In this document: positions 1-64,000 of the stretch, in pieces
Numbering within the stretch: the stretch's first letter is position 1
Layout of the letters: every line of letters starts with the position of its first letter
NCBI RefSeq assembly: GCF_055900595.2
Contig: NZ_CM148325.1
Length of the DNA stretch: 64,000 nt
Reading direction: 5' to 3' (one strand)
Position numbers and translations under genes: made by a program
The notes under the pieces: generated by a model
Told to the model about the DNA's origin: nothing
Database searches by the model: none
The model's input: the letters and a program-made list of their open reading frames with translations, nothing else

Positions 1-134
1 AAGGGCAAACCACTGACTGGATCAACATTAACAGCGATAACGACAATAAACGCTGCGTCTCAAAAATCACCTTTTCCGGCCATACGGTGAACTCATCGGA
101 TATGGCCACGCTGAAAATTATCGGCGACGACTAA
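1..134 (+). CDS. yaaI: 3' end of YaaI-like protein (DUF2541); start lies outside the window
   Basis: Open frame 3..134 ending in TAA at 132..134 (…TLKIIGDD*); sits 25 bp upstream of yaaW as in K-12. Confidence 0.5.
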
Positions 135-159
135 CGCCAGAATATAGAAGCCACAAAAA

Positions 160-873
160 ATGAATGTTAATTACCTGAATGATTCAGATCTGGATTTTCT
201 CCAGCATTGTAGTGAGGAACAATTGGCAAATTTCGCCCGGCTGCTCACCCATAATGAAAAAGGCAAAACTCGCCTCTCCAGCGTACTGATGCGCAACGAA
301 CTGTTTAAATCGATGGAAGGACATCCCGAGCAACATCGCCGCAACTGGCAGCTGATTGCCGGAGAATTACAGCATTTTGGTGGCGATAGTATCGCCAACA
401 AACTGCGTGGACACGGTAAATTGTATCGGGCCATTTTGCTCGATGTTTCAAAACGATTGAAGCTGAAAGCCGACAAAGAGATGTCTACGTTTGAAATTGA
501 GCAACAGTTACTGGAACAATTTCTGCGTAATACCTGGAAGAAAATGGACGAGGAACATAAGCAGGAGTTTCTGCACGCGGTCGATGCCAGGGTGAATGAG
601 CTGGAAGAGCTGCTGCCGCTGCTGATGAAAGACAAATTATTGGCAAAAGGCGTGTCGCATTTGCTTTCCAACCAATTGACCCGCATTTTACGCACCCACG
701 CAGCAATGAGCGTACTTGGGCATGGTTTGCTGCGCGGCGCGGGGCTGGGAGGCCCTGTAGGCGCGGCACTAAATGGGGTTAAAGCGGTCAGCGGCAGCGC
801 CTATCGCGTGACGATTCCAGCCGTACTGCAAATCGCCTGCCTGCGTCGGATGGTTAGTGCCACTCAGGTCTGA
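160..873 (+). CDS. yaaW: UPF0174 family protein YaaW
   Basis: 237-aa ORF, length and position match K-12 yaaW between yaaI and satP. Confidence 0.8.
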   Translation: MNVNYLNDSDLDFLQHCSEEQLANFARLLTHNEKGKTRLSSVLMRNELFKSMEGHPEQHRRNWQLIAGELQHFGGDSIANKLRGHGKLYRAILLDVSKRLKLKADKEMSTFEIEQQLLEQFLRNTWKKMDEEHKQEFLHAVDARVNELEELLPLLMKDKLLAKGVSHLLSNQLTRILRTHAAMSVLGHGLLRGAGLGGPVGAALNGVKAVSGSAYRVTIPAVLQIACLRRMVSATQV

Positions 874-1021
874 TACCGGAAACCGGGGAAAATTTTCATT
901 TTCCCTTCAAAAGATCGTAGACACTGCCCCACTGGCTGATTATTATGCCGCGCCCTGAAAACACTACAGTTATTCAGGGAAATTATTTCACCATTCATTC
1001 GATGATGATTTTTGAGGAATT

Positions 1022-1588
1022 ATGGGCAACACTAAGTTGGCTAATCCGGCACCGCTGGGCCTGATGGGCTTCGGCATGACCACCATTCTGCTTAACCTGC
1101 ACAACGTGGGTTATTTCGCTCTTGACGGTATTATTCTTGCAATGGGCATTTTCTACGGCGGCATCGCGCAAATTTTTGCTGGTCTGCTGGAGTACAAAAA
1201 AGGCAACACTTTCGGTTTAACCGCATTCACCTCTTACGGTTCTTTCTGGCTGACGCTGGTTGCGATTCTGCTGATGCCGAAACTGGGTCTGACCGATGCG
1301 CCAAATGCACAGTTCCTTGGTGTATACTTGGGTCTGTGGGGCGTATTTACGCTGTTTATGTTCTTCGGCACGCTGAAAGGCGCACGCGTTCTGCAATTCG
1401 TTTTCTTTAGCCTGACCGTGCTGTTTGCCCTGCTGGCGATCGGTAACATTGTCGGTAATGCCGCGATCATCCACTTTGCCGGCTGGATTGGTCTGATCTG
1501 CGGTGCCAGCGCAATCTATCTGGCGATGGGTGAAGTACTGAACGAGCAGTTTGGTCGCACCGTTCTGCCGATTGGTGAATCCCACTAA
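1022..1588 (+). CDS. satP: succinate-acetate/proton symporter SatP (YaaH)
   Basis: 188-aa hydrophobic ORF, GPR1/FUN34/YaaH family; synteny upstream of mog. Confidence 0.9.
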   Translation: MGNTKLANPAPLGLMGFGMTTILLNLHNVGYFALDGIILAMGIFYGGIAQIFAGLLEYKKGNTFGLTAFTSYGSFWLTLVAILLMPKLGLTDAPNAQFLGVYLGLWGVFTLFMFFGTLKGARVLQFVFFSLTVLFALLAIGNIVGNAAIIHFAGWIGLICGASAIYLAMGEVLNEQFGRTVLPIGESH

Positions 1589-1598
1589 TTGTTTTGAG

Positions 1599-1626
1599 AT
1601 CCCCCCGCTCGGGGGGATTTTTTTAT
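1599..1626 (+). terminator. rho-independent terminator after satP (hairpin ATCCCCCC-GCTC-GGGGGGAT plus T-run); overlaps the mog stop codon
   Basis: Perfect 8-bp GC-rich stem at 1599-1618 followed by TTTTTTTATT. Confidence 0.75.
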
Positions 1627-2210
1627 TCGCTAACTTCGCGTCTTGCACTCTTCGGTCTGAATGCTGCAACTACTTCCGGTGCCGTTTCAACGTATGGCCC
1701 TTCCAGCAATTGAATGCAGTACGGTACGCTGGCAAAAATACCGTGTACCACAACGTTACCCTCAGCATCCTTCACCCCTTCCAGCGTCTCTTTAATAGAC
1801 TTCGGCTGACCGGGTAAGTTAAGGATTAGTGCTTGTTTGCGAATCACGCCCACCTGGCGCGAAAGGATCGCGGTTGGAACAAAATGCAGGCTAATTTGGC
1901 GCATCTGTTCACCAAAGCCTGGCATCTCGCGGTCCGCTACTGCCAGCGTCGCATCGGGTGTGACGTCACGACGCGCCGGGCCAGTTCCGCCCGTGGTGAG
2001 CACCAGATGGCAACTCATTTCATCCACCAGCTCACACAACGTTTGCTCGATGATCGCCTGCTCGTCGGGGATTAAGCGGGTTTCCAGTTCAAACGGCGTG
2101 GTTAGCGCCGATGTCAGCCATTCTTCCAGCGCTGGGATGCCTTTATCCTGATAAACGCCGCTGGATGCGCGATCAGAGATGGAAACTAAGCCAATACGTA
2201 AAGTATTCAT
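1623..2210 (-). CDS. mog: molybdopterin adenylyltransferase Mog
   Basis: 195-aa ORF (MNTLRIGLVSISDRASSGVYQDKGIPALEEWL…), MoaB/MogA fold; synteny. Confidence 0.9.
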   Translation of the reverse strand: MNTLRIGLVSISDRASSGVYQDKGIPALEEWLTSALTTPFELETRLIPDEQAIIEQTLCELVDEMSCHLVLTTGGTGPARRDVTPDATLAVADREMPGFGEQMRQISLHFVPTAILSRQVGVIRKQALILNLPGQPKSIKETLEGVKDAEGNVVVHGIFASVPYCIQLLEGPYVETAPEVVAAFRPKSARREVSE

Positions 2211-2324
2211 TAAGATTTTTCCGTTTAAACAGTCTCGTTAAACAGAATGATACACTGCGAAGGGAGTGACAGACAGGCTTCAGAAGAGGTAGCGTGACCG
2301 ACTTCCCGGTCACGCTAAGAATGA

Positions 2325-3278
2325 TTACAGCAGATCGCCGATCATTTTTTCCAGTTTTTCCTGGTCAACAGCAAACTTACGGATACCTTCTGCCAGTTTA
2401 TCTACTGCCATTGGATCCTGGTTGTGCTGCCACAGGAACTCGGACTCAGTGATACGCGCCGGACGCGCTTTCACTTCGCCGGTGTAAGACAGTTTACGCT
2501 CGACAGCCCCTTCGCTCTCAGCCAGCTCTTTCAGCAGTGCCGGTGCGATGGTCAGACGGTCGCAGCCTGCCAGTTCCAGAATTTCGCCGATGTTACGGAA
2601 GCTTGCGCCCATCACCACGGTTTCATAACCGTGCTCTTTGTAGTACTGGTAGATTTCAGATACAGAAACCACGCCCGGATCTTCTGCCGGAGCGTACTCT
2701 TTCTTATCAGTATTCGCTTTGTACCAGTCAAGAATACGGCCAACAAATGGCGAGATCAGGAACACGCCTGCTTCCGCACAAGCACGAGCCTGAGCGAAGG
2801 AGAACAGCAGGGTCAGGTTACAGTTGATACCTTCTTTTTCCAGCTGTTCTGCAGCACGGATACCCTGCCAGGTAGAAGCCAGTTTGATCAGAATACGATC
2901 GTTGCTAATACCTGCATCGTTGTAGAGTTTGATCAGGCGTTTTGCTTTCGCAATTGACGCTTCGGTGTCATAGGAAAGACGCGCATCAACTTCAGTTGAG
3001 ATACGGCCCGGAACCAGTTTCAGGATTTCCAGACCAATATTTACTGCCAGTTTGTCGGTCGCGTCCACGATTTGCTGCGCGCGATCGTTGCTCTGCTGTT
3101 TCGCCCAGGCGACAGCATCATCAATCAACTTACGATATTCCGGAATCTGCGCTGCGTTAAGAATGAGAGAAGGGTTGGTTGTGGCATCCTGCGGTTGATA
3201 CAGCTTCATTGCCGCGATGTCCCCAGTGTCGGCCACTACGGTGGTGTACTGACGAAGGGAGGTCAATTTGTCCGTCAT
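2325..3278 (-). CDS. talB: transaldolase B
   Basis: ORF 2325..3341; the known TalB N-terminus [20 protein letters not shown] begins at an internal Met, giving 317 aa. Confidence 0.92.
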
Positions 3279-20344: not shown

Positions 20345-22282
20345 TCAGTAACGACGTCCCCATTCCGTGGCGCTCATCAACGTTGGTTTATCCCCCATGA
20401 AATAGCGGTAGTAAGCGTCATAAGCCAGCACGTTCTTCACATAACCGCGCGTCTCGGAGAACGGAATACTCTCGACAAATGCCACTGCGTCGATACGACC
20501 AGCGCTATTGCCAAGCCAGGTGCGCACTCGTCCAGGTCCGGCGTTATAAGCTGCTGAGGCGAAAATACGGTTATTGCCAAACTGCTGATAAACATATTGC
20601 AGGTAACTGGTGCCGATGTTGATGTTCGTTTCCGGATCCAGCAATTGCCCAGGGCTGCTGTAGCCAGGAATAGAGAACATCTTCACCGTATGGGTCGCCG
20701 TACCAGGCATAATCTGCATCAGCCCGCTGGCCCCTACCGGTGACTTCACTTTCGGATTCCAGGCACTCTCCTGACGGGCAATCGCCATCGCATAGCTTTG
20801 CGGGATCTCCTTACCGCTGGTGTAACGTTTGAAAAGATCGTTGTAGGCCAGCGGGAATCGCTCTTCCAGATGATCCCACAACTTCCCGGCGATCGTCGCC
20901 TGAACGCTGAGATCCCACCATTGGTTGTTGAAAGCATACCGTGCCAGCTGTGCCTGCTCTGTTTTTGACTTGCTCTTCACCAGATTGGCCCACTCGCTAC
21001 GCGCGGTGTTATCGAGATTCCAGTACATCAACTCGCGCACGCGCGCCATCTCCGGCCCCTGAGTCAGAGTGCTGTCAACATTCTGCGGCGCTTTATCAAT
21101 CTTCAGCTCATACTCTTCGCCGATGCGCTGTGCAGCAACCATCGGGTAGAAACCACGCTGTTGCATAAGTTGATGCAGAATCTCTTTCGCTTCAGCTTCA
21201 CGTCCGCGTTCCAGCAATAAATCGGCCTGCCAGTAACGCCATTCATCTTTCTCTTTCGCTTCCATCGGCAAACGCGCCAGCCAGGTATTCAGGCCACGCC
21301 GATCGCCAGTACCAAGCGCCATCCGCACTCGGCGTTCAATCAACGAGGTGGATTGCGAGCGCATAATGGCGTCATCGCGCCATTTCGCCTGCTCGTCGGT
21401 GACATCGTTGCCCATCAAACGCCAGGCGACGATATCGCGCAGTTCCTGAATCTGATCTTCATTAAGCTGCTGTGCCTGAGCAAGCGATGGAATCATCAGC
21501 CGTGCATTTTCAGCATCCTGCCGCGCCACGCTGGCAAACGCCACCGCCGCCATTTGACGGGTAAAATCGGTCGCACCGGTTGTACGCGCGAAGGTCAGTA
21601 CCGTATTAGGGTTGTTCGCCAGAGAAATAATCGCCGAGGCGATAGTCTGGTAATCAGCAGGCATCTGCCCTGCCAGCACTGTCACCAGGCCTGTGTTACC
21701 CGCTTTCATCGCCAGACGGATACGCTCCAGATACGCCAGCGGATCTTGTTTGCCTGACGCACGCCAGACGCTAAATAACTTGTCACAGGCGTTAGGCTGG
21801 CTCTTGCCGGTTAGCCACAGCTCTTTCGCCCCTTGCCAGGCTTCTTCACTCTGCCCGGTGTTCCATTTCGCATAGTAGTAATTACATTGCGCTTCGGTAG
21901 TTCCGGGCTTTTCCGGGCTAAAGGCTAACAAGCCACGCCAGTCTTCACGCCGCGCCAGTTCATTGACGAAACGAGATTGCAGCGTGCGAGCGGGAGGAAG
22001 CGTGGGGTTAGCGCGAACAAAGTTAGTGACCGTCACCGCCGGTTGATTCATCAGGTCATCGGTGATCTGGCGGTATTCCAGATAGGGATAAAGTGGATAA
22101 TCCTTCAATCCAGGCATCATTTGTTCGACCACATCCATTTGTCGATTATCCCAGGCCTGCTTAATTTGCGCGTAACGGCTACGCTGCTCATCCAGTGAGT
22201 CGGCTCGCGCCACGCTGCTGACCGTCAGCAGACAGACACCGACAGCCAACAGCCGCCAGGTAACGTGTTTGGCTTTTTCCAC
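20345..22282 (-). CDS. slt: soluble lytic murein transglycosylase Slt70
   Basis: 645-aa ORF with signal peptide and C-terminal lysozyme-like motifs (…ESAWNPKVKSPVGASGLMQIMPGTA…). Confidence 0.93.
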   Translation of the reverse strand: MEKAKHVTWRLLAVGVCLLTVSSVARADSLDEQRSRYAQIKQAWDNRQMDVVEQMMPGLKDYPLYPYLEYRQITDDLMNQPAVTVTNFVRANPTLPPARTLQSRFVNELARREDWRGLLAFSPEKPGTTEAQCNYYYAKWNTGQSEEAWQGAKELWLTGKSQPNACDKLFSVWRASGKQDPLAYLERIRLAMKAGNTGLVTVLAGQMPADYQTIASAIISLANNPNTVLTFARTTGATDFTRQMAAVAFASVARQDAENARLMIPSLAQAQQLNEDQIQELRDIVAWRLMGNDVTDEQAKWRDDAIMRSQSTSLIERRVRMALGTGDRRGLNTWLARLPMEAKEKDEWRYWQADLLLERGREAEAKEILHQLMQQRGFYPMVAAQRIGEEYELKIDKAPQNVDSTLTQGPEMARVRELMYWNLDNTARSEWANLVKSKSKTEQAQLARYAFNNQWWDLSVQATIAGKLWDHLEERFPLAYNDLFKRYTSGKEIPQSYAMAIARQESAWNPKVKSPVGASGLMQIMPGTATHTVKMFSIPGYSSPGQLLDPETNINIGTSYLQYVYQQFGNNRIFASAAYNAGPGRVRTWLGNSAGRIDAVAFVESIPFSETRGYVKNVLAYDAYYRYFMGDKPTLMSATEWGRRY

Positions 22283-59005: not shown

Positions 59006-60670
59006 TTAAAACGTTTCCCAGTTCTCTCCGCTATCTGCCACTGTCACTTTGCGCGGCGCTACTGGCGTCACAGTTTTTACTACTGCCGATGCTTCGCGCT
59101 GGCGTTGCTGCTCTTGCTGAATCCGGAACACTGCCACAGCTTCGGTCAGGCGACTGGCCTGCTCCTCCAGCGCGGCGGCGGCGGCGGCAGATTCTTCCAC
59201 CAGCGCAGCGTTCTGTTGGGTTACTCTGTCCATCTCAGCTACTGCTAAGCCAACCTGATCGATACCACGGCTCTGCTCATCAGAAGCCGAAGCAATTTCG
59301 CCCATAATGTCCGTCACGCGGGTCACAGCGCTGACAATCTCTGCCATGGTTTCCCCGGCGCTTTCGACCAGCGTAGAGCCAACATCCACTTTGCCCACCG
59401 AGTCTTCAATCAGGCTTTTAATTTCGCGAGCCGCCTGAGCGCTACGCTGGGCCAGATTACGCACTTCTCCCGCAACCACCGCAAAACCGCGCCCTTGCTC
59501 ACCCGCACGCGCTGCTTCAACCGCCGCGTTCAAAGCAAGAATATTGGTCTGGAAGGCAATGCCGTCAATTACGCTGATAATATCGGCGATTTTCTGCGAG
59601 CTGGTGGAGATATCGCGCATGGTCTGCACCACGTTATCAACCACTTTGCCGCCACGTTGCGCCGTTTCGGAAGCACTTAATGCCAGATGGCTAGCCTGAC
59701 GCGCATTCTCGGCGTTCTGTTTCACCGTTGCGGTCAGTTGCTCCATGCTGGCTGCCGTCTCTTCCAGCGAAGCGGCCTGTTGCTCGGTGCGCGAAGAAAG
59801 ATCGTTATTGCCGGTGGCGATTTCGCTGGCACCGCTATAGATAGCATTGGCCCCGTTGCGCACATCACCGACGGTACGCATCAGCTCTCCCTGCATATGG
59901 CGCAAACTCTCTGCCAGTTGCCCCATCTCATTAGAACCATCCACCTCAATCGGTTTCACCAGATCGCCACCTGCAATATGACGAATGCTGTCAATCAGGC
60001 GATTCATTGGCGCTACCAACGAGGCTTTAATACCGAACCAGACGGCGAAGATGACCGCCAGTACGACGATCATCACGCCCACCAGAATCCACATCGCCTG
60101 GCTGTAGGAGGCATTATTATCGCTGACGGCGATATCATAGAGCCGATCGTTTTGCTCCATGTAAGCCACATACTGCTTCTCGAAACCGTCCTGATATCCC
60201 TGAGTCGGCTGATCAAAGAATTCGTTGATTTTGCCTGCACCTAACAGTTGGATCAGTTCCGCCAGCGCATTGTGATAAATATCGTAATTACGTTTGATCT
60301 CTGCCGATGCGGCGGTGCTCTGACGCGGGTCACGCGGCAATGCTTCGTAATCCGCCCAGTTTTTTTCCGCCTGTTTCAGCGAAATACTGGCACTCTGCAT
60401 CAGCTCGGCAACGGTTGAACCGCTACCAATATTGTTCTGATCCATCATGTAGCGGATACCCGCGCGGTTGAGGGTGTTACGCGTCTGCAACAACGCGACC
60501 CAGCTGCCATTCAGCGTGGATTGCTGCTGGCGAATGGTTTGTAAAACAGTGAAATTTTCTTTGTCATTCTTTAAGGCATTAAAGAACAGACCGCCTGATG
60601 TCAGTTGTAAAAGGCCAAAAACGGCCAAAACCAGCAGTAAGCTGGTCACGATCTTGATACGTTTTAACAT
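59006..60670 (-). CDS. tsr: methyl-accepting chemotaxis protein I (serine chemoreceptor) Tsr
   Basis: ORF 59006..60685; start [23 protein letters not shown] (551 aa); HAMP and MCP signalling domains, C-terminal NWETF. Confidence 0.95.
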
Positions 60671-60701
60671 GGTTTCTCTTTCCACTAGACAGATACACTG
60701 G

Positions 60702-60728
60702 TTGTCGGCCTGGTGGTGGAAAACTTTA
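60702..60728 (-). promoter_or_regulatory. sigma-28 (FliA) class-3 flagellar promoter of tsr
   Basis: Minus strand TAAAGTTT-11 nt-GCCGACAA, matching consensus TAAAGTTT-N11-GCCGATAA, about 30 bp upstream of tsr start. Confidence 0.8.
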
Positions 60729-60809
60729 TGCTGTGGAAAAGCGTCGGCACTGCTTTTGTTGCAGCAAACTTGCGTTTTTTGTGAGGGTCACACTCTATAG
60801 CGGCAGTTT

Positions 60810-61715
60810 ATGGTACAAAGTATCAATCTTCTTCGAATCAGTGATACTCCTATGGCTTATAGCATCGATATCATCTCCTGCATTACCGAACGGTTTATGG
60901 CGTTAACAGCCACTGAAAAGCGTATCGCACAATTTATTCTTGATGACGTCTCTGCCGCAGTAGAGTTGCCAATTGCTGAGCTGGCACGGTTAACGCAAAC
61001 CAGTCAGGCGTCGGTGACGCGTTTTGCCCGTGCACTGGGGTGCAAAGATGTCCGCGAGTTGAAAGTAAAACTGGCGCAGTCACTGGCTGTCGGGCAGCGG
61101 TTTATTCTCGATGTACCGGATCTTGACGGTGTTCAGGGGATCTACGAAGCGATTATTAGCGTGCTGGAAACGCATCGTCGTTCGCTGGATATGAATGCCA
61201 TCAGCCAGGCTGTAAGCTGGTTAAGTCAGGCGCGGCAAATTCTTGCATTGGGAACTGGCGGCGGTTCCACTATCTGTTCACAGGAGATTCAGTACCGTTT
61301 ATTCCGTCTGGGGCTACCAGTGGTCAGTCAGAATGATGCCCTGATGATGAGAATGATGTGCTCGGCAGTGATGCCGCAGGATGTGGTGATTGTGCTGTCG
61401 CTGGGCGGTTATACACCGGAAATCATCGAAAGTGCGGCAATCGCCCGTCAGTATGGCGCGCGTGTTATTGCCATTACGCCAGCACAAACACCGCTGGCGG
61501 AACAGGTGGATCTGGTATTGCCGTTACTGGTTCAGGAAAGTGATTACATCTTTAAGCCCACCCCTTCCCGCTACGCGATGTTAGCCATGGTCGATGTACT
61601 GGCAACAGAACTGGCAATGGCAAATAAAGCGCAGGCGAAAGATCGCCTGCGGCGGATAAAACTGGTGTTAGACAGCCACCGTGGGGGCGCTAACCGCCAG
61701 CCACTTGGCGATTAG
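60810..61715 (+). CDS. RpiR/MurR-family transcriptional regulator (N-terminal HTH plus SIS domain)
   Basis: 301-aa ORF (possible true start at MAYSIDII…, 60849); HTH …TEKRIAQFILDD…IAELARLTQTSQASVTRFARALG…; not in the K-12 tsr neighbourhood as I recall it. Confidence 0.75.
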   Translation: MVQSINLLRISDTPMAYSIDIISCITERFMALTATEKRIAQFILDDVSAAVELPIAELARLTQTSQASVTRFARALGCKDVRELKVKLAQSLAVGQRFILDVPDLDGVQGIYEAIISVLETHRRSLDMNAISQAVSWLSQARQILALGTGGGSTICSQEIQYRLFRLGLPVVSQNDALMMRMMCSAVMPQDVVIVLSLGGYTPEIIESAAIARQYGARVIAITPAQTPLAEQVDLVLPLLVQESDYIFKPTPSRYAMLAMVDVLATELAMANKAQAKDRLRRIKLVLDSHRGGANRQPLGD

Positions 61716-61724
61716 CACTGTCGG

Positions 61725-63194
61725 TTATGCTTCTTCAGGTTTGGTGATCACGACACTCTGGTTTTCACGCTCATTGGTGATAATCGCCAAAGCTTCTTCC
61801 CGGCTGACCTGACTAGCTGGCGTTACCAACGTCACCAGTACGCCAGCGACCAGGCTGCCCAGCACTGACGGAATACACGGATTACCCCAGTAAGCCAGCC
61901 AGTCGGCATTCATCAGCACCACAATGGACATCACCATACCGCTCACTAACGCCGCCAGCGCGCCCTGCCAGTTAAAGCGTAGCCAGAAGCGACCGAGGAT
62001 TGAGCAGATAAACAGCCCGGACATCAGCATCGAAATCATTTTGGTAATGTAGCTGATGATGTCATTAGAGGTCAGAGCAAAGGCCAGCGCCAGGCCAATA
62101 ACAAAGGTCAACATCCAGCGTGAGTAAGTAATGGCCTTGTCCTCCGGCGGCATTCTGCCGGTAATCATGGTGTAGACGTCGCGCATCATAATCGCCACTG
62201 CCGCAATGGCATCGGAGCTGGCAGAAGACATGGTGGCAGAAAGCCCGGCAATCAGTACCACCAGCCCAAGAATGGCGGGTAAGAAGCTGGTCGCGAACAA
62301 GAAGGCATAGTTACTGTTTTCCAGATTCGGGTTCATGGTGAACGCCGCCATGCCGATAATGGCAGGCAGAATCGAGAAGAACAGATACAACACGCCAGTA
62401 ATAACAAATGAACGCCGTACAGAGGGAACGTCTTTTCCCGAGTAAATACGCTGGCGATAAGATGGTGTGGCCAGTACGCCGACACCAATAACCAGCGCCA
62501 GCGAAAGCGCAGGCAGCACGCCCATTTTATCAATCGCAAACAGGCTCATCGCTTTTGGGTCCATCGCCTGTTCAATCGCACTCCAGCCGCCAACGTGAAC
62601 AACGGCAAGAATAGCCATTAATATAAAGCCAAAGAACAGAATTAGGGCCTGAATAGTATCTGTCCACACTACCGCCGAATAACCACCGATAATAACGTAA
62701 ATCGCAAAAGCTAAGGCAATAATTAATTTTGCCACCGTAAGATCAATACCTGTTGCCCAGGCAAGATACATACTCCCACCTAATATATGCGCCCCCAGCC
62801 AGCCAATAGAGGCAATAAATATCATCAGGCCGACAATATTTTTAATTAAATGGCTGCCGCCAGTATAATAAGATATTTCTTCACTCATGGTCATAAAACG
62901 TAATTTACGTACCGGTGCAAACAGCCACGCCACCAGTAATATACCTACGGCCCCACCGACGCCATAAAGCATTCCGGCCCAGCCATTGCTGTAGCCAAAG
63001 CCCACTGCGCCCATACTGGAACCAGTGCCAACCATCGTGGCAACGGTTGACCCCAGCGTCAGAAACAGCGGCAGCGAACGCCCGCCCAGCAGAAAATCTT
63101 CTCCGTTTTTCTGATTACGAGAAACAAACCAACCAAGCCAAATCATGGCGATGGCATAAATAATAAAGCCGACTAAAAAGATATGACTGTTCAT
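61725..63194 (-). CDS. sodium:solute symporter family (SSF) transporter
   Basis: 489-aa polytopic ORF MNSHIFLVGFIIYAIAMIWLGWFVSRNQKNGEDFLLGGRSLPLFLTLGSTVATMVGTGSSMGAVGFGY…, typical SSF N-terminus. Confidence 0.75.
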   Translation of the reverse strand: MNSHIFLVGFIIYAIAMIWLGWFVSRNQKNGEDFLLGGRSLPLFLTLGSTVATMVGTGSSMGAVGFGYSNGWAGMLYGVGGAVGILLVAWLFAPVRKLRFMTMSEEISYYTGGSHLIKNIVGLMIFIASIGWLGAHILGGSMYLAWATGIDLTVAKLIIALAFAIYVIIGGYSAVVWTDTIQALILFFGFILMAILAVVHVGGWSAIEQAMDPKAMSLFAIDKMGVLPALSLALVIGVGVLATPSYRQRIYSGKDVPSVRRSFVITGVLYLFFSILPAIIGMAAFTMNPNLENSNYAFLFATSFLPAILGLVVLIAGLSATMSSASSDAIAAVAIMMRDVYTMITGRMPPEDKAITYSRWMLTFVIGLALAFALTSNDIISYITKMISMLMSGLFICSILGRFWLRFNWQGALAALVSGMVMSIVVLMNADWLAYWGNPCIPSVLGSLVAGVLVTLVTPASQVSREEALAIITNERENQSVVITKPEEA

Positions 63195-63296
63195 AATTCA
63201 CATCCTGCCAGTAGAGAGAGAATAATGTAAGAGTTCCCGGAGTGCTGAATGTATTCAGCACTCAATTGCGGTCTGTTTTTTTAATTCTTAAATTTA

Positions 63297-63692
63297 TTAG
63301 CGGGTCGCGTTATAACAGGTCACATCGACTTCGACTTTACAATCGACAACCAGATCAGCCACACAACAAATACGTGCAGGCGGATTCTCGCCAAAAAATT
63401 CTCTGAATACTTTATTAAATGACTGGAAATAGCGGGCGTCGGTCAGGATCACTTTCACGTGAACCACATCCGCCAGGCTATAACCGGCTTCAGTCATGAT
63501 GTCGACACAGTTTTGGATCGCCAGTCGTGACTGTTCAACGATTCCGCCTTCTACCACTTCACCGTTTTTCATGGGTGTTTGCCCGGAGACGTACAGCCAG
63601 CCGCCCGCCTCAACCGCCCTGGCAAAAGGCAAATGCTGCCCGCCAGTGCCTGTTCCACCTTCCGTACCGTAACGTTTAATGCTCATATTCAC
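63297..63692 (-). CDS. RidA/YjgF/TdcF-family protein (putative enamine/imine deaminase)
   Basis: 131-aa ORF (…GQTPMKNGEVVEGGIVEQSRLAIQNCVDIMTEAGYSLADVVHVKVILTD…FNKVFREFFGENPPARICCV…). Confidence 0.75.
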   Translation of the reverse strand: MNMSIKRYGTEGGTGTGGQHLPFARAVEAGGWLYVSGQTPMKNGEVVEGGIVEQSRLAIQNCVDIMTEAGYSLADVVHVKVILTDARYFQSFNKVFREFFGENPPARICCVADLVVDCKVEVDVTCYNATR

Positions 63693-63695
63693 TCC

Positions 63696-64000
63696 TTAAT
63701 GTGAGGTCTGCCGGCGCAGGAAGCGTCCCGCACGGCCTGTAATATGTTTATCGCGACCATAGCTCATAACGCCGTTCACCATCACCGCCTCAATGCCATC
63801 TGCCGGGCGTTTGGGATCAGAAAAGCTGGCAACATCACGAATGGTTTGTGGATCGAACAACACCAGGTCCGCAAAATAACCGACTTTCACCAGTCCTCGC
63901 TGGGGCAAGCGAAAACGGCTGGCAGAAAGCCCGGTCATTTTGTGGATAGCCGTGGTCAGTGGGAATAAGCCTTCATCACGGCAATAGTGGCCCAGCACGC
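63696..64000 (-). CDS. 3' end of an amidohydrolase, D-aminoacylase-like (partial; start outside the window)
   Basis: C-terminal 100 codons (…LTTAIHKMTGLSASRFRLPQRGLVKVGYFADLVLFDPQTIRDVASFSDPKRPADGIEAVMVNGV…) resemble N-acyl-D-amino-acid deacylase C-termini; stop 3 nt before the RidA start. Confidence 0.5.
   Translation of the reverse strand, partial: VLGHYCRDEGLFPLTTAIHKMTGLSASRFRLPQRGLVKVGYFADLVLFDPQTIRDVASFSDPKRPADGIEAVMVNGVMSYGRDKHITGRAGRFLRRQTSH

What the first reader, a model, noticed from the sequence alone, without database searches (positions are those of the whole stretch)
60810..64000. Non-K-12 gene block next to tsr: RpiR regulator, sodium:solute symporter, RidA and D-aminoacylase-like hydrolase
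Upstream of tsr, where K-12 carries btsT (yjiY), this window has an RpiR/SIS-family regulator on the plus strand and, converging on it, a minus-strand operon of a partial D-aminoacylase-like amidohydrolase, a RidA-family deaminase and an SSF transporter. Stop-start spacing between the amidohydrolase and RidA is 3 nt. An amidohydrolase plus RidA plus transporter under an RpiR regulator suggests an uncharacterised catabolic module, perhaps for an N-acylated or D-amino acid with RidA quenching a reactive enamine/imine. It sits at the edge of the hypervariable immigration-control region and continues beyond the window.
Basis: partly seen in the sequence, partly recalled or inferred. Interest (0 to 1): 0.6.

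Follow-up and report, generated by a model that had tools for sequence, protein, structure and literature searches.

The report
E. coli oxidised-amino-sugar (ong) catabolic cassette
The gene block next to tsr is the E. coli copy of the known "ong" core cluster, which in marine bacteria imports and breaks down N-acetylglucosaminic acid (the oxidised sugar released when chitin is cut oxidatively), so it is a catalogued accessory pathway, although nobody has tested it in E. coli.

Summary
The four genes are real and intact: an RpiR/SIS regulator (60852-61715, +), an SSS transporter (61725-63194, -), a RidA protein (63297-63686, -) and the last 100 codons of a D-aminoacylase-fold hydrolase (63696-64000, -). 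Near-identical E. coli loci show a fifth gene past the window, a divergent fold-type III PLP "amino acid deaminase", and then btsT. So btsT is displaced, not replaced.

These five genes are the core of the ong cluster of Pseudoalteromonas prydzensis (Jiang 2022). Identities are OngR 44%, OngIT 57%, OngD 83%, OngB 54% and OngC 45%. All published GlcNAc1A-contacting residues of OngB, and four of its five specificity residues, are conserved.

The predicted pathway is: GlcNAc1A uptake, deacetylation, PLP-dependent deamination to 2-keto-3-deoxygluconate (RidA presumably clearing the imine), then the core-genome kdgK/eda.

The cassette is in 193 of 5,426 complete E. coli genomes and absent from K-12. 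Jiang's Supplementary Data 3 already lists E. coli strains as ong-positive, so I rate it already known.

New here: a conserved candidate OngR operator (60811-60825) and corrected start codons. Close enteric relatives also append DgoK/DgoA-type rather than KdgK/Eda-type enzymes, which leaves the sugar's C4 configuration open.

The parts
60731..60851 (.). Left junction of the insertion and the regulatory region of the regulator gene. Similarity to the K-12 tsr upstream region stops at 60730.
   Evidence: blastn of the K-12 tsr-btsT intergenic region against the window and against L001, L005 and L006 gives the same break point in all of them. No integrase, tRNA or direct repeats are present.
60811..60825 (+). 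Candidate OngR operator, TGGTAC-AAA-GTATCA (6-3-6 inverted repeat). It overlaps a -10-like TATGGT and lies 26 nt upstream of the regulator's start codon.
   Evidence: The same 15-mer (TGGTACAAAGTAyCA) sits about 30 nt upstream of the regulator gene in Shimwellia, Entomohabitans and AP025685.1. A related copy (TGAATAAAAGTAyCA) lies in every ongC/ongB divergent intergenic region, with single copies in Serratia, V. cholerae and Stutzerimonas. The 9-mer core occurs only 4 times on both strands of the 64-kb window. Binding has not been tested.
60852..61715 (+). ongR homologue: MurR/RpiR-family regulator (HTH_6 + SIS), 287 aa.
   Evidence: NCBIfam. 44% identical over its full length to P. prydzensis OngR, a demonstrated repressor. 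71-82% identical to enteric orthologues. RefSeq uses the same start in E. coli.
61630..61651 (-). Terminator-like hairpin (9 pairs, 7 G-C, then CTTTATTTGC) 74 nt after the transporter's stop codon, embedded antisense in the 3' end of the regulator gene. Possible end of the minus-strand operon.
   Evidence: Consensus scan only. The number of such sites in the region is not above the shuffled expectation, so this is weak.
61725..63194 (-). ongIT homologue: sodium:solute symporter, 489 aa.
   Evidence: TIGR00813. 57% identical over 475 aa to P. prydzensis OngIT, which is genetically required for GlcNAc1A uptake. 74-88% identical to enteric orthologues.
63240..63263 (-). Intercistronic hairpin between the RidA gene and the transporter gene: a perfect 11-nt inverted repeat with a 2-nt spacer and no U-tract.
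   Evidence: the repeat finder. RNA fold -21.8 kcal/mol, z = -2.6. Each related genus has a different G+C-rich hairpin at the same place, so the conserved feature is a structure, not a protein-binding sequence.
63297..63686 (-). ongD homologue: RidA-family protein, 129 aa.
   Evidence: TIGR00004. Solved RidA structures with the Arg of 'PAR' conserved. 83% identical to P. prydzensis OngD, which is essential for growth on GlcNAc1A. 80-96% identical in the 120 best hits across Enterobacterales, Vibrionales, Alteromonadales and pseudomonads.
63696..64000 (-). 3' end (last 100 codons plus stop) of the ongB homologue, a D-aminoacylase-fold subtype V amidohydrolase. The gene runs off the window.
   Evidence: Identical to residues 381-480 of the E. 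coli 99-3165 protein. That full-length protein is 54% identical to PpOngB, 84% to K. pneumoniae KleDacyl, PDB 9G5M, and retains the OngB substrate and specificity residues. None of those residues lies inside the window.

Best explanation
The window holds four of the five genes of an accessory E. coli cassette, ongR | ongIT-ongD-ongB | ongC. The fifth gene and most of ongB lie past position 64000. The cassette is the core of the 'ong' pathway for oxidised amino sugar.

Proposed mechanism:
1. Free 2-acetamido-2-deoxy-D-gluconate (GlcNAc1A) is made outside the cell, for example by chitin-oxidising LPMO producers. This source is inferred. It crosses the outer membrane through general porins (inferred).
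2. The SSS transporter takes it up (by homology).
3. The OngB-type metallo-amidohydrolase removes the acetyl group, giving D-glucosaminate (by homology plus conserved substrate-contact residues).
4. The fold-type III PLP enzyme OngC eliminates water and ammonia, giving 2-keto-3-deoxygluconate (by homology).
5. The RidA protein OngD hydrolyses the enamine/imine that OngC releases. This is inference: OngD is essential in P. prydzensis, but its reaction is unknown.
6. KDG is finished by the core-genome kdgK and eda, which KDG itself induces through KdgR. This rests on established E. coli physiology. The cassette carries no kinase or aldolase.
7. The RpiR/SIS protein represses its own promoter and the divergent ongB/ongC promoters through TGGTAC-N3-GTAyCA-type sites, until the substrate or a derivative binds its SIS domain (predicted from the conserved sites).

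E. coli has no LPMO, no OngA hexosaminidase and no TonB receptor in the cassette. It would therefore be a scavenger of the free monomer, not a chitin degrader.
For: Homology to the characterised proteins. The P. prydzensis DSM 14232 ong locus was retrieved with the paper's own primers and its ORF starts match those primers. Identities are OngR 44%, OngIT 57%, OngD 83%, OngB 54% and OngC 45%.

Gene set. The same five-gene set is found in E. coli, Shimwellia, Entomohabitans, Serratia, V. cholerae and Stutzerimonas, in varying order.

OngB active site.
- The Cys/His/His metal ligands, the catalytic Asp and the GlcNAc1A contacts Leu116, Tyr194, Glu226, Lys254, Tyr285, Ser291, Ser292, Gln298, Leu370 and Arg379 are invariant in all nine aligned proteins.
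- The contact Ser290 is kept in E. coli and seven of the others; Stutzerimonas has Gly there.
- The residues that separate OngB from true D-aminoacylases are of OngB type: Ala193, Ala256, Ser292 and Gln298.
- PDB bit scores rank PpOngB (559) above A. faecalis D-aminoacylase (455) and N-acyl-D-glutamate deacylase (387).

Product is a six-carbon keto-deoxy acid. Relatives append a 2-keto-3-deoxy-sugar-acid kinase and aldolase directly after the transporter gene. V. cholerae also adds a GH20 hexosaminidase and a lactonase.

Regulation. A phylogenetic footprint marks the candidate operator at exactly the expected promoters.

Prior listing. Jiang et al. list 13 E. coli strains, E. fergusonii and an Escherichia sp. 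as ong-positive with ongC/R/B/D/IT and without lpmo, kdgK or ongA.
Against: - No experiment exists for E. coli.
- Only 44-57% identity to the characterised OngR, OngIT, OngB and OngC. PpOngB is itself 46% identical to a true D-aminoacylase, so identity alone does not fix the substrate.
- The 84%-identical K. pneumoniae enzyme hydrolyses N-acetyl-D-Met, -Phe and -Trp, although poorly (kcat/Km 1.5-2.8 per min per mM). PpOngB shows no such activity.
- One specificity position differs: Gly348 in PpOngB is Asn in E. coli.
- The closest relatives that carry downstream enzymes use DgoK/DgoA-type enzymes, not KdgK/Eda-type. This would fit the C4 epimer better than the gluco form.
- The window itself contains no active-site residue of OngB and does not contain ongC.
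Confidence: 0.7

Rival explanations
1. Same enzymology, different sugar. The enteric clade, including this E. coli cassette, is tuned to the C4 epimer N-acetyl-D-galactosaminate, or takes both epimers. The product would be 2-keto-3-deoxygalactonate, fed to DgoK/DgoA.
For: - In AP025685.1, Entomohabitans and Serratia fonticola, the transporter gene is followed by a PF05035 (DGOK) kinase 46% identical to K-12 DgoK.
- It is also followed by an aldolase 49-67% identical to K-12 DgoA. For the two aldolases scored (AP025685.1 and Serratia), this exceeds the NCBIfam KDPGal-aldolase cut-off (257-287 bits against 207).
- That aldolase carries the DgoA-like 'AVGGV' motif. V. cholerae, Stutzerimonas and Pseudoalteromonas instead use a PfkB KdgK, and the V. 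cholerae aldolase is Eda-type with 'PTGGI'.
- The E. coli proteins are 65-88% identical to those of the three DGOK-type clusters, but only 44-69% to OngR/IT/B/C of the KdgK-type clusters. OngD is 81-90% identical to all of them.
Against: - Every OngB residue that contacts the sugar hydroxyls, including Glu226 on C4-OH, is unchanged between the two cluster types.
- Serratia and Klebsiella species with this cluster type also carry chitin LPMOs, whose product is the gluco form.
- E. coli and Shimwellia carry no kinase or aldolase in the cassette. From general knowledge, KDG induces kdgK/eda, whereas the dgo operon responds to galactonate.
- No natural source of GalNAc1A is documented in what I read.
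Confidence: 0.15
2. A genuine N-acetyl-D-amino-acid salvage module. The transporter imports N-acetyl-D-amino acids, the hydrolase is a true D-aminoacylase, the PLP enzyme is a D-Ser/D-Thr dehydratase, and RidA quenches 2-aminoacrylate or 2-aminocrotonate.
For: [quoted passage not shown]
- The 84%-identical KleDacyl deacetylates N-acetyl-D-Met, -Phe, -Trp and -aminobutyrate with strict D-specificity.
- P. prydzensis OngC also deaminates D-Ser and D-Thr.
- The nearest solved structure to the E. coli PLP enzyme is annotated as a D-serine deaminase.
Against: - KleDacyl's efficiency is very low: Km 19-32 mM and kcat/Km about 25-47 per M per s. PpOngB on GlcNAc1A gives about 1,600 per M per s. GlcNAc1A was never offered to KleDacyl.
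- The hydrophobic-pocket residues of true D-aminoacylases (Phe, Met, Leu, Met, Thr) are replaced by Ala, Ala, Gln, Asn, Ser.
- Relatives append a keto-deoxy-hexonate kinase and aldolase, which are useless for pyruvate or 2-ketobutyrate.
- An RpiR/SIS regulator points to a sugar-derived effector.
Confidence: 0.1
3. A functionally inert remnant in E. coli. The cassette was inherited or acquired without its kinase, aldolase, hexosaminidase and receptor genes, and no longer supports growth on any substrate.
For: It lacks four or five genes of the full P. prydzensis/Vibrio cluster. It is present in only 3.6% of complete genomes.
Against: - All reading frames are intact in the window. OngD is identical in the four E. 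coli sequences compared (the window and three RefSeq strains), while the DNA of the block diverges from the window by up to about 2% among the E. coli genomes listed.
- The same five-gene form exists in Shimwellia.
- E. coli encodes kdgK/eda and dgoK/dgoA elsewhere (for dgo; kdgK/eda from general knowledge).
- The regulatory sites are conserved.
Confidence: 0.05

Closest known systems
ong cluster of Pseudoalteromonas prydzensis ACAM 620 (Jiang et al. 2022, Nat Commun 13:5899; PMC9537276)
   Same: Five homologous genes: an RpiR repressor, an SSS transporter, a RidA protein, a D-aminoacylase-fold GlcNAc1A deacetylase and a fold-type III PLP GlcN1A deaminase. Identities are 44-83%. The OngB substrate-binding and specificity residues are conserved. 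The authors' own supplementary table lists E. coli strains as carriers.
   Different: - No TonB-dependent receptor, no GH20 OngA and no kdgK in the cassette, and no LPMO in the genome.
- Different gene order and operon structure. In P. prydzensis the regulator sits inside ongCRBD and ongIT heads its own operon. Here the regulator is a separate convergent gene and the transporter follows ongB-ongD.
- OngB position 348 is Asn, not Gly.
- Function is untested in E. coli.
KleDacyl, the 'D-acylase' of Klebsiella pneumoniae (PDB 9G5M/9GV8; Martinez-Rodriguez and Gavira 2025; PMC12149444)
   Same: 84% identical over all 480 residues to the E. coli protein whose C-terminus is in the window. It has the same Gln at the specificity-loop position (Gln292 in KleDacyl).
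   Different: It was characterised only as a biocatalyst on N-acetyl-D-amino acids, where it is slow. That paper does not mention GlcNAc1A or the ong pathway.
[quoted passage not shown]
   Same: [quoted passage not shown]
   Different: The side-chain pocket is polar (Ala, Ala, Ser, Gln, Asn) instead of hydrophobic or basic. The sequence is closer to PpOngB (559 bits) than to these enzymes (455 and 387 bits).
Salmonella dga pathway for D-glucosaminate (PTS uptake, then D-glucosaminate-6-phosphate ammonia-lyase; recalled from Miller et al. 2013, not checked here)
   Same: It also ends in a keto-deoxy-gluconate derivative cleaved by a KDPG-type aldolase.
   Different: It phosphorylates first through a PTS and uses unrelated enzymes. 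The ong route deacetylates and deaminates without prior phosphorylation.

Membership tests
ong (oxidised N-acetylglucosamine) catabolic cluster | OngB-type deacetylase: subtype V Cys/His/His + Asp site, plus the GlcNAc1A contacts (Glu226, Ser290-292, Gln298) and the discriminators against D-aminoacylases (Ala193, Ala256, Ser292, Gln298, Gly348) | tested here: met
   Everything is conserved in the full-length E. coli protein except Gly348, which is Asn. Caveat: this was tested on the near-identical locus L001. The window holds only residues 381-480, which are identical.
ong (oxidised N-acetylglucosamine) catabolic cluster | Adjacent fold-type III PLP deaminase (OngC) | tested here: inconclusive
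   Present, divergent from ongB, in all three E. coli loci examined. It is 45% identical to P. prydzensis OngC, and orthologues carry Pfam Ala_racemase_N + D-ser_dehydrat. It lies beyond position 64000, so its presence in this strain is inferred, not seen.
ong (oxidised N-acetylglucosamine) catabolic cluster | RidA-family OngD, SSS-family OngIT and RpiR-family OngR encoded together | tested here: met
   83%, 57% and 44% identity to the characterised proteins. All three are complete in the window.
ong (oxidised N-acetylglucosamine) catabolic cluster | KDG kinase (kdgK) in the cluster | tested here: not met
   There is no kinase gene between tsr and btsT in L005 or L006. Jiang's table also marks kdgK as absent for E. 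coli. The function is presumably supplied by the core genome.
ong (oxidised N-acetylglucosamine) catabolic cluster | Upstream chitin-oxidation functions: LPMO, TonB receptor OngOT, GH20 OngA | tested here: not met
   Absent from the E. coli loci and marked absent in the published table. The E. coli form is the cytoplasmic core only.
ong (oxidised N-acetylglucosamine) catabolic cluster | Growth on GlcNAc1A, induction by it, and enzymatic conversion to KDG | not testable with these tools
   No E. coli data were found in the literature library.
[quoted passage not shown] | Hydrophobic side-chain pocket (AfDam Phe191, Met254, Leu298, Met346 and a Thr at the PpOngB Ser292 position) | tested here: not met
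   E. coli has Ala, Ala, Gln, Asn and Ser at the equivalent positions.
[quoted passage not shown] | Efficient hydrolysis of N-acetyl-D-amino acids | tested here: inconclusive
   Literature only. The 84%-identical KleDacyl is active but weak, with Km 19-32 mM and kcat/Km 1.5-2.8 per min per mM. The E. coli enzyme has not been assayed.
RidA subfamily (imine/enamine deaminase) of the Rid/YjgF superfamily | Conserved active-site arginine (Arg105 of E. coli/Salmonella RidA, in the 'PAR' motif) | tested here: met
   The 'NPPARICC' segment aligns with 'kPAR' of solved RidA homologues. TIGR00004 scores 82 bits, below the curated 106-bit cut-off, so this is a diverged member.
Mobile genomic island | Integrase or transposase, tRNA target, flanking direct repeats | tested here: not met
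   None is present at the junctions. Three strains share identical break points inside the tsr-btsT intergenic region.

The most novel reading that the evidence does not exclude
The enterobacterial branch of this cluster family, to which the E. coli cassette belongs, may not be a chitin-oxidation pathway. It may instead catabolise the C4 epimer N-acetyl-D-galactosaminate, or both epimers, through DgoK/DgoA-type enzymes. That would be an undescribed route for an oxidised amino sugar. Such a compound could arise from oxidation of mucin-derived GalNAc in the gut, and the cassette would then be a host-niche trait of the poultry, livestock and human E. coli lineages that carry it.
Probability: 0.15. 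Interest if true: 0.55.

Novelty: already known. Interest (0 to 1): 0.28.

Why it matters
If the cassette works as predicted, about 1 in 28 fully sequenced E. coli strains could feed on an oxidised amino sugar that K-12 cannot use. These strains include many avian-pathogenic, ETEC and environmental isolates. They would do so without degrading chitin themselves, so this would be cross-feeding on LPMO products or on chemically oxidised GlcNAc.

It also offers a genetically tractable host for two open questions from the original work: what the essential RidA protein OngD actually does, and what the RpiR repressor senses.

Two practical points follow:
- The DgoK/DgoA-type enzymes in enteric clusters have been treated as kdgK/kdgA and deserve a direct test.

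Tried and rejected
- **Longest-ORF starts.** I rejected ATG 60810 for the regulator and GTG 63692 for RidA. ATG 60810 directly abuts and is contiguous with the conserved non-coding site. GTG 63692 abuts the AAGGAG ribosome-binding site that serves ATG 63686.
- **The 63240-63263 palindrome as an operator.** Rejected. Its sequence is not conserved, but every genus has some hairpin at that spot, so an RNA element is more likely.
- **Operator support from counts within the window.** Not significant: 3 matches at up to 3 mismatches against 2.0 expected. Support rests on cross-genus conservation only, and the motif was derived from the same loci.
- **Mobile-element signatures at the junctions.** None found.
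- **Rfam scan of 60500-64000.** Nothing credible.
- **Base composition.** GC is 0.44-0.55 across the block, not distinctive.
- **Consensus promoter and terminator scan.** Counts are no higher than in shuffles.
- **Separating gluco from galacto substrate using OngB contact residues.** There is no difference between cluster types.
- **Treating the 10-kb hydroxyproline module seen in E. coli 99-3165 as part of the same unit.** Rejected. Only 35 genomes hold it, against 193 with the ong core.
- **** translated the fragment in the wrong frame and was ignored.
- **Literature search for E. coli-specific work on this locus or on GlcNAc1A.** Nothing beyond the supplementary table.

Full report
**What is in the window.**

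Positions 60810-64000 contain four uninterrupted reading frames:
- a plus-strand regulator;
- converging on it, a minus-strand run of a sodium:solute symporter, a RidA-family protein and the last 100 codons of an amidohydrolase that continues beyond the window.

NCBIfam supports each assignment:
- HexR/MurR/RpiR models, E 8e-59;
- TIGR00813 sss, E 6e-49;
- TIGR00004 Rid family, E 3e-23;
- the C-terminal part of an amidohydrolase model, E 4e-16.

The RidA protein aligns with 43 solved RidA/YjgF structures and keeps the arginine of the 'PAR' motif. Base composition is unremarkable, and Rfam finds nothing.

The ATG at 60810 abuts a 15-bp non-coding site that is conserved across genera. The regulator therefore most likely starts at 60852, as RefSeq annotates it.

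RidA most likely starts at ATG 63686, which is preceded by AAGGAG. The gap to the hydrolase stop codon is then 9 nt rather than 3.

**What lies beyond the window, and the comparison with K-12.**

The block is found in 193 of 5,426 complete E. coli genomes, always chromosomal, at 95-99.2% identity. Sources among the genomes listed include poultry and avian-pathogenic strains, human isolates (including O6:H16 strains), cattle, pigs and water.

In strain 99-3165 a further 10-kb hydroxyproline-catabolism module sits between the deaminase gene and btsT. Only 35 genomes hold that module, so it is a separate unit.

K-12 has tsr and btsT back to back, with 377 bp between them. Similarity to K-12 stops at window position 60730 and resumes about 180 bp upstream of btsT. 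The break points are identical in three strains, and there are no integrase genes, tRNA genes or repeats.

However, btsT is displaced rather than replaced, and the unit is a five-gene, roughly 6-kb insertion in the intergenic region.

**What it is.**

The gene set matches the 'ong' cluster described in Pseudoalteromonas prydzensis ACAM 620: RpiR regulator, SSS transporter, RidA, D-aminoacylase-like hydrolase and D-amino-acid-deaminase-like PLP enzyme.

The published work on that cluster shows the following (Jiang et al. 2022, PMC9537276):
- OngIT is required for uptake of GlcNAc1A (2-acetamido-2-deoxy-D-gluconate, the C1-oxidised end product of LPMO action on chitin).
- OngB deacetylates GlcNAc1A to D-glucosaminate.
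- OngC deaminates D-glucosaminate to 2-keto-3-deoxygluconate.
- KdgK phosphorylates that product.
- OngR is a repressor.
- OngD (RidA) is essential, but its role is unknown.

I retrieved the P. prydzensis DSM 14232 locus by scanning genome contigs with one of the paper's primers. The ORF starts match the published primers.

| Protein | Identity of the E. coli protein to the P. prydzensis protein |
|---|---|
| OngR | 44% |
| OngIT | 57% |
| OngD | 83% |
| OngB | 54% |
| OngC | 45% (over the part of OngC held) |

**Whether the hydrolase is an OngB or a true D-aminoacylase.**

PpOngB is itself 46% identical to a true D-aminoacylase, so identity alone is not enough. I therefore used the structural study of PpOngB (PMC12017989). 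It names three groups of residues:
- the metal ligands Cys97, His222 and His252, and the catalytic Asp368;
- the GlcNAc1A contacts Leu116, Tyr194, Glu226, Lys254, Tyr285, Ser290-292, Gln298, Leu370 and Arg379;
- the positions that distinguish OngB from D-aminoacylases: Ala193, Ala256, Ser292, Gln298 and Gly348, against Phe, Met, Thr, Leu or Arg, and Met.

In an alignment of nine OngB homologues, including the E. coli protein, all of these except positions 290 and 348 are invariant. Ser290 is kept in E. coli and seven others (Stutzerimonas has Gly). Position 348 is Asn in E. coli.

Against the PDB, the E. coli protein scores 559 bits to PpOngB, 455 to the A. faecalis D-aminoacylase and 387 to the N-acyl-D-glutamate deacylase.

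None of these residues lies in the window. The window fragment is identical to the corresponding part of the protein I tested.

**Prior knowledge.**

Supplementary Data 3 of Jiang et al. already lists 13 E. coli strains, E. fergusonii and an Escherichia sp. as carrying the ong cluster. They are marked as having ongC, ongR, ongB, ongD and ongIT, and as lacking lpmo, ongOT, kdgK and ongA. The locus-tag order matches this cassette.

I found no paper that tests the pathway in E. coli.

The best PDB match of the E. coli hydrolase is KleDacyl of K. pneumoniae (9G5M), at 84% identity. It was published as a 'D-acylase' for biocatalysis. Its activity on N-acetyl-D-Met, -Phe and -Trp is weak: Km 19-32 mM and kcat/Km 1.5-2.8 per min per mM. 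That paper never mentions GlcNAc1A. For comparison, PpOngB has a kcat/Km of 1.6 per mM per s on GlcNAc1A.

**Independent context.**

The 120 best-scoring homologues of the RidA protein are 80-96% identical across Enterobacterales, Vibrio, Photobacterium, Pseudoalteromonas, Zobellella and pseudomonads. Against non-E. coli genomes it is the most conserved protein of the set.

I fetched six of their loci:

| Organism | Gene content around the five core genes |
|---|---|
| Shimwellia | the same five genes as E. coli, nothing added |
| V. cholerae | adds a PfkB KdgK, an Eda-type aldolase, a GH20 hexosaminidase and a lactonase |
| Stutzerimonas | adds a PfkB kinase and an OprD porin |
| AP025685.1, Entomohabitans, Serratia fonticola | add a kinase and an aldolase directly after the transporter gene |

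A kinase and aldolase for 2-keto-3-deoxy sugar acids attached to the operon is strong evidence that the product is a six-carbon keto-deoxy acid. It argues against pyruvate or 2-ketobutyrate as the product, and therefore against the plain N-acetyl-D-amino-acid reading.

**An unresolved point.**

In the three enteric clusters the kinase is of the DGOK family, 46% identical to K-12 DgoK. The aldolase is of the DgoA type:
- 49-67% identical to K-12 DgoA;
- above the NCBIfam KDPGal-aldolase cut-off in the two clusters scored (AP025685.1 and Serratia);
- carrying the 'AVGGV' motif, where the V. cholerae Eda-type enzyme has 'PTGGI'.

The significance of the Val/Thr position is recalled from work on KDPGal aldolase and was not checked here.

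The E. coli proteins are 65-88% identical to those of these three DGOK-type clusters. They are only 44-69% identical to OngR, OngIT, OngB and OngC of the KdgK-type clusters (OngD is 81-90% identical to all of them). This would fit a substrate of galacto configuration.

Four things argue against that reading:
- The sugar-contacting residues of OngB do not differ between the two cluster types.
- Serratia and Klebsiella species listed with the kdgK-negative form of the cluster also have LPMOs.
- E. coli and Shimwellia carry no kinase or aldolase in the cassette.
- From general knowledge, KDG induces kdgK/eda through KdgR, whereas the dgo operon responds to galactonate.

I keep the galacto reading as a 15% rival.

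**Regulation.**

A 15-bp site, TGGTAC-AAA-GTAyCA, lies 26-30 nt upstream of the regulator gene in E. coli (window 60811-60825), Shimwellia, Entomohabitans and AP025685.1. The surrounding sequence is otherwise unalignable.

A related site, TGAATAAAAGTAyCA, lies in each ongC/ongB divergent intergenic region. Clusters in which the regulator is co-transcribed with an enzyme gene rather than standing alone have a single site.

The 9-mer core occurs only four times on both strands of the window. A mismatch search within the window is not significant on its own. The motif was derived from these same loci, so it is a prediction.

The site has the 6-3-6 layout known for HexR-type RpiR operators (recalled, not checked here). 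In the window it overlaps a -10-like TATGGT, which suggests autorepression.

Between the RidA gene and the transporter gene there is a perfect 11-bp inverted repeat at 63240-63263 (fold -21.8 kcal/mol, z = -2.6). Other genera have unrelated hairpins at the same spot, so I read it as an intercistronic RNA structure.

**Verdict.**

The most likely function is scavenging of free N-acetylglucosaminic acid through deacetylation, PLP-dependent deamination with RidA-assisted imine hydrolysis, and core-genome KDG metabolism, under an RpiR repressor (confidence about 0.7).

The steps rest on homology, conserved residues and gene context. RidA's role, the operator, the source of the substrate and the use of kdgK/eda are inferences. 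Interest is modest.

Noticed in passing
L007 10059-11623; L012 10094-11570; L008 10035-11544 (compare L009 10188-11790): Enteric versions of the cluster carry a DGOK-family kinase and a DgoA-type (KDPGal-type, 'AVGGV') aldolase after the transporter gene. V. cholerae has a PfkB KdgK and an Eda-type ('PTGGI') aldolase. Stutzerimonas and Pseudoalteromonas also have a PfkB kinase. The published survey scores these enteric genes as kdgK-absent or calls the aldolase kdgA.
   Followed up: partly
window 63297-63686 and homologues P0001-P0120: The RidA protein (OngD) is 80-96% identical in the 120 best hits across several orders of Gammaproteobacteria. It is much more conserved than the enzymes it sits with (44-57% to Pseudoalteromonas). 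Its biochemical role is still unknown in the literature.
   Followed up: partly
L001 19919-29949 (beyond the window; E. coli 99-3165): A 10-kb hydroxyproline-type catabolic module lies between the deaminase gene and btsT. It encodes 4-hydroxyproline epimerase, three oxidoreductase subunits, a DHDPS-family protein, an aldehyde dehydrogenase, an APC permease, an Ldh-family oxidoreductase and an AraC regulator. It is present in only 35 of 5,426 genomes, so the tsr-btsT gap is a small hot spot that takes more than one cargo.
   Followed up: partly
PDB 9G5M/9GV8 (K. pneumoniae WP_002887553.1): The solved 'D-acylase' KleDacyl is 84% identical to the E. coli OngB homologue and has the OngB signature Gln. 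The paper that solved it never considers GlcNAc1A, so a ready-made structure and enzyme preparation exist for the decisive assay.
   Followed up: partly
window 60780-60792: A palindrome, TGTGA-GGG-TCACA, lies just inside the insertion and upstream of the regulator gene. Its half-sites look like CRP half-sites, but the spacer is 3 nt rather than 6. It is not seen upstream of the regulator gene in the other genera.
   Followed up: no
window 61630-61651 (minus strand): A terminator-like hairpin is embedded antisense in the 3' end of the regulator gene, 74 nt after the transporter's stop codon. The two convergent genes have only 9 bp between their stop codons, so any terminator must lie inside the opposing gene.
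   Followed up: no
L006 about 20860-20920 (beyond the window): The deaminase gene ends with a clean intrinsic terminator (CCCCTTCG...CGAAGGGG plus a T-run). It is followed by a near-consensus CRP site, TGTGATCTCAATCACA, upstream of btsT. K-12 has the counterpart TGTGATATGAATCACA, so the insertion left the btsT control region intact.
   Followed up: no
L005 4559-7258 (E. coli APEC O2-211): In this strain lgoT, next to tsr, is split by an ISVsa5 (IS4-like) insertion. In strain 99-3165, bglJ carries an internal stop (L001 781-1458).
   Followed up: no
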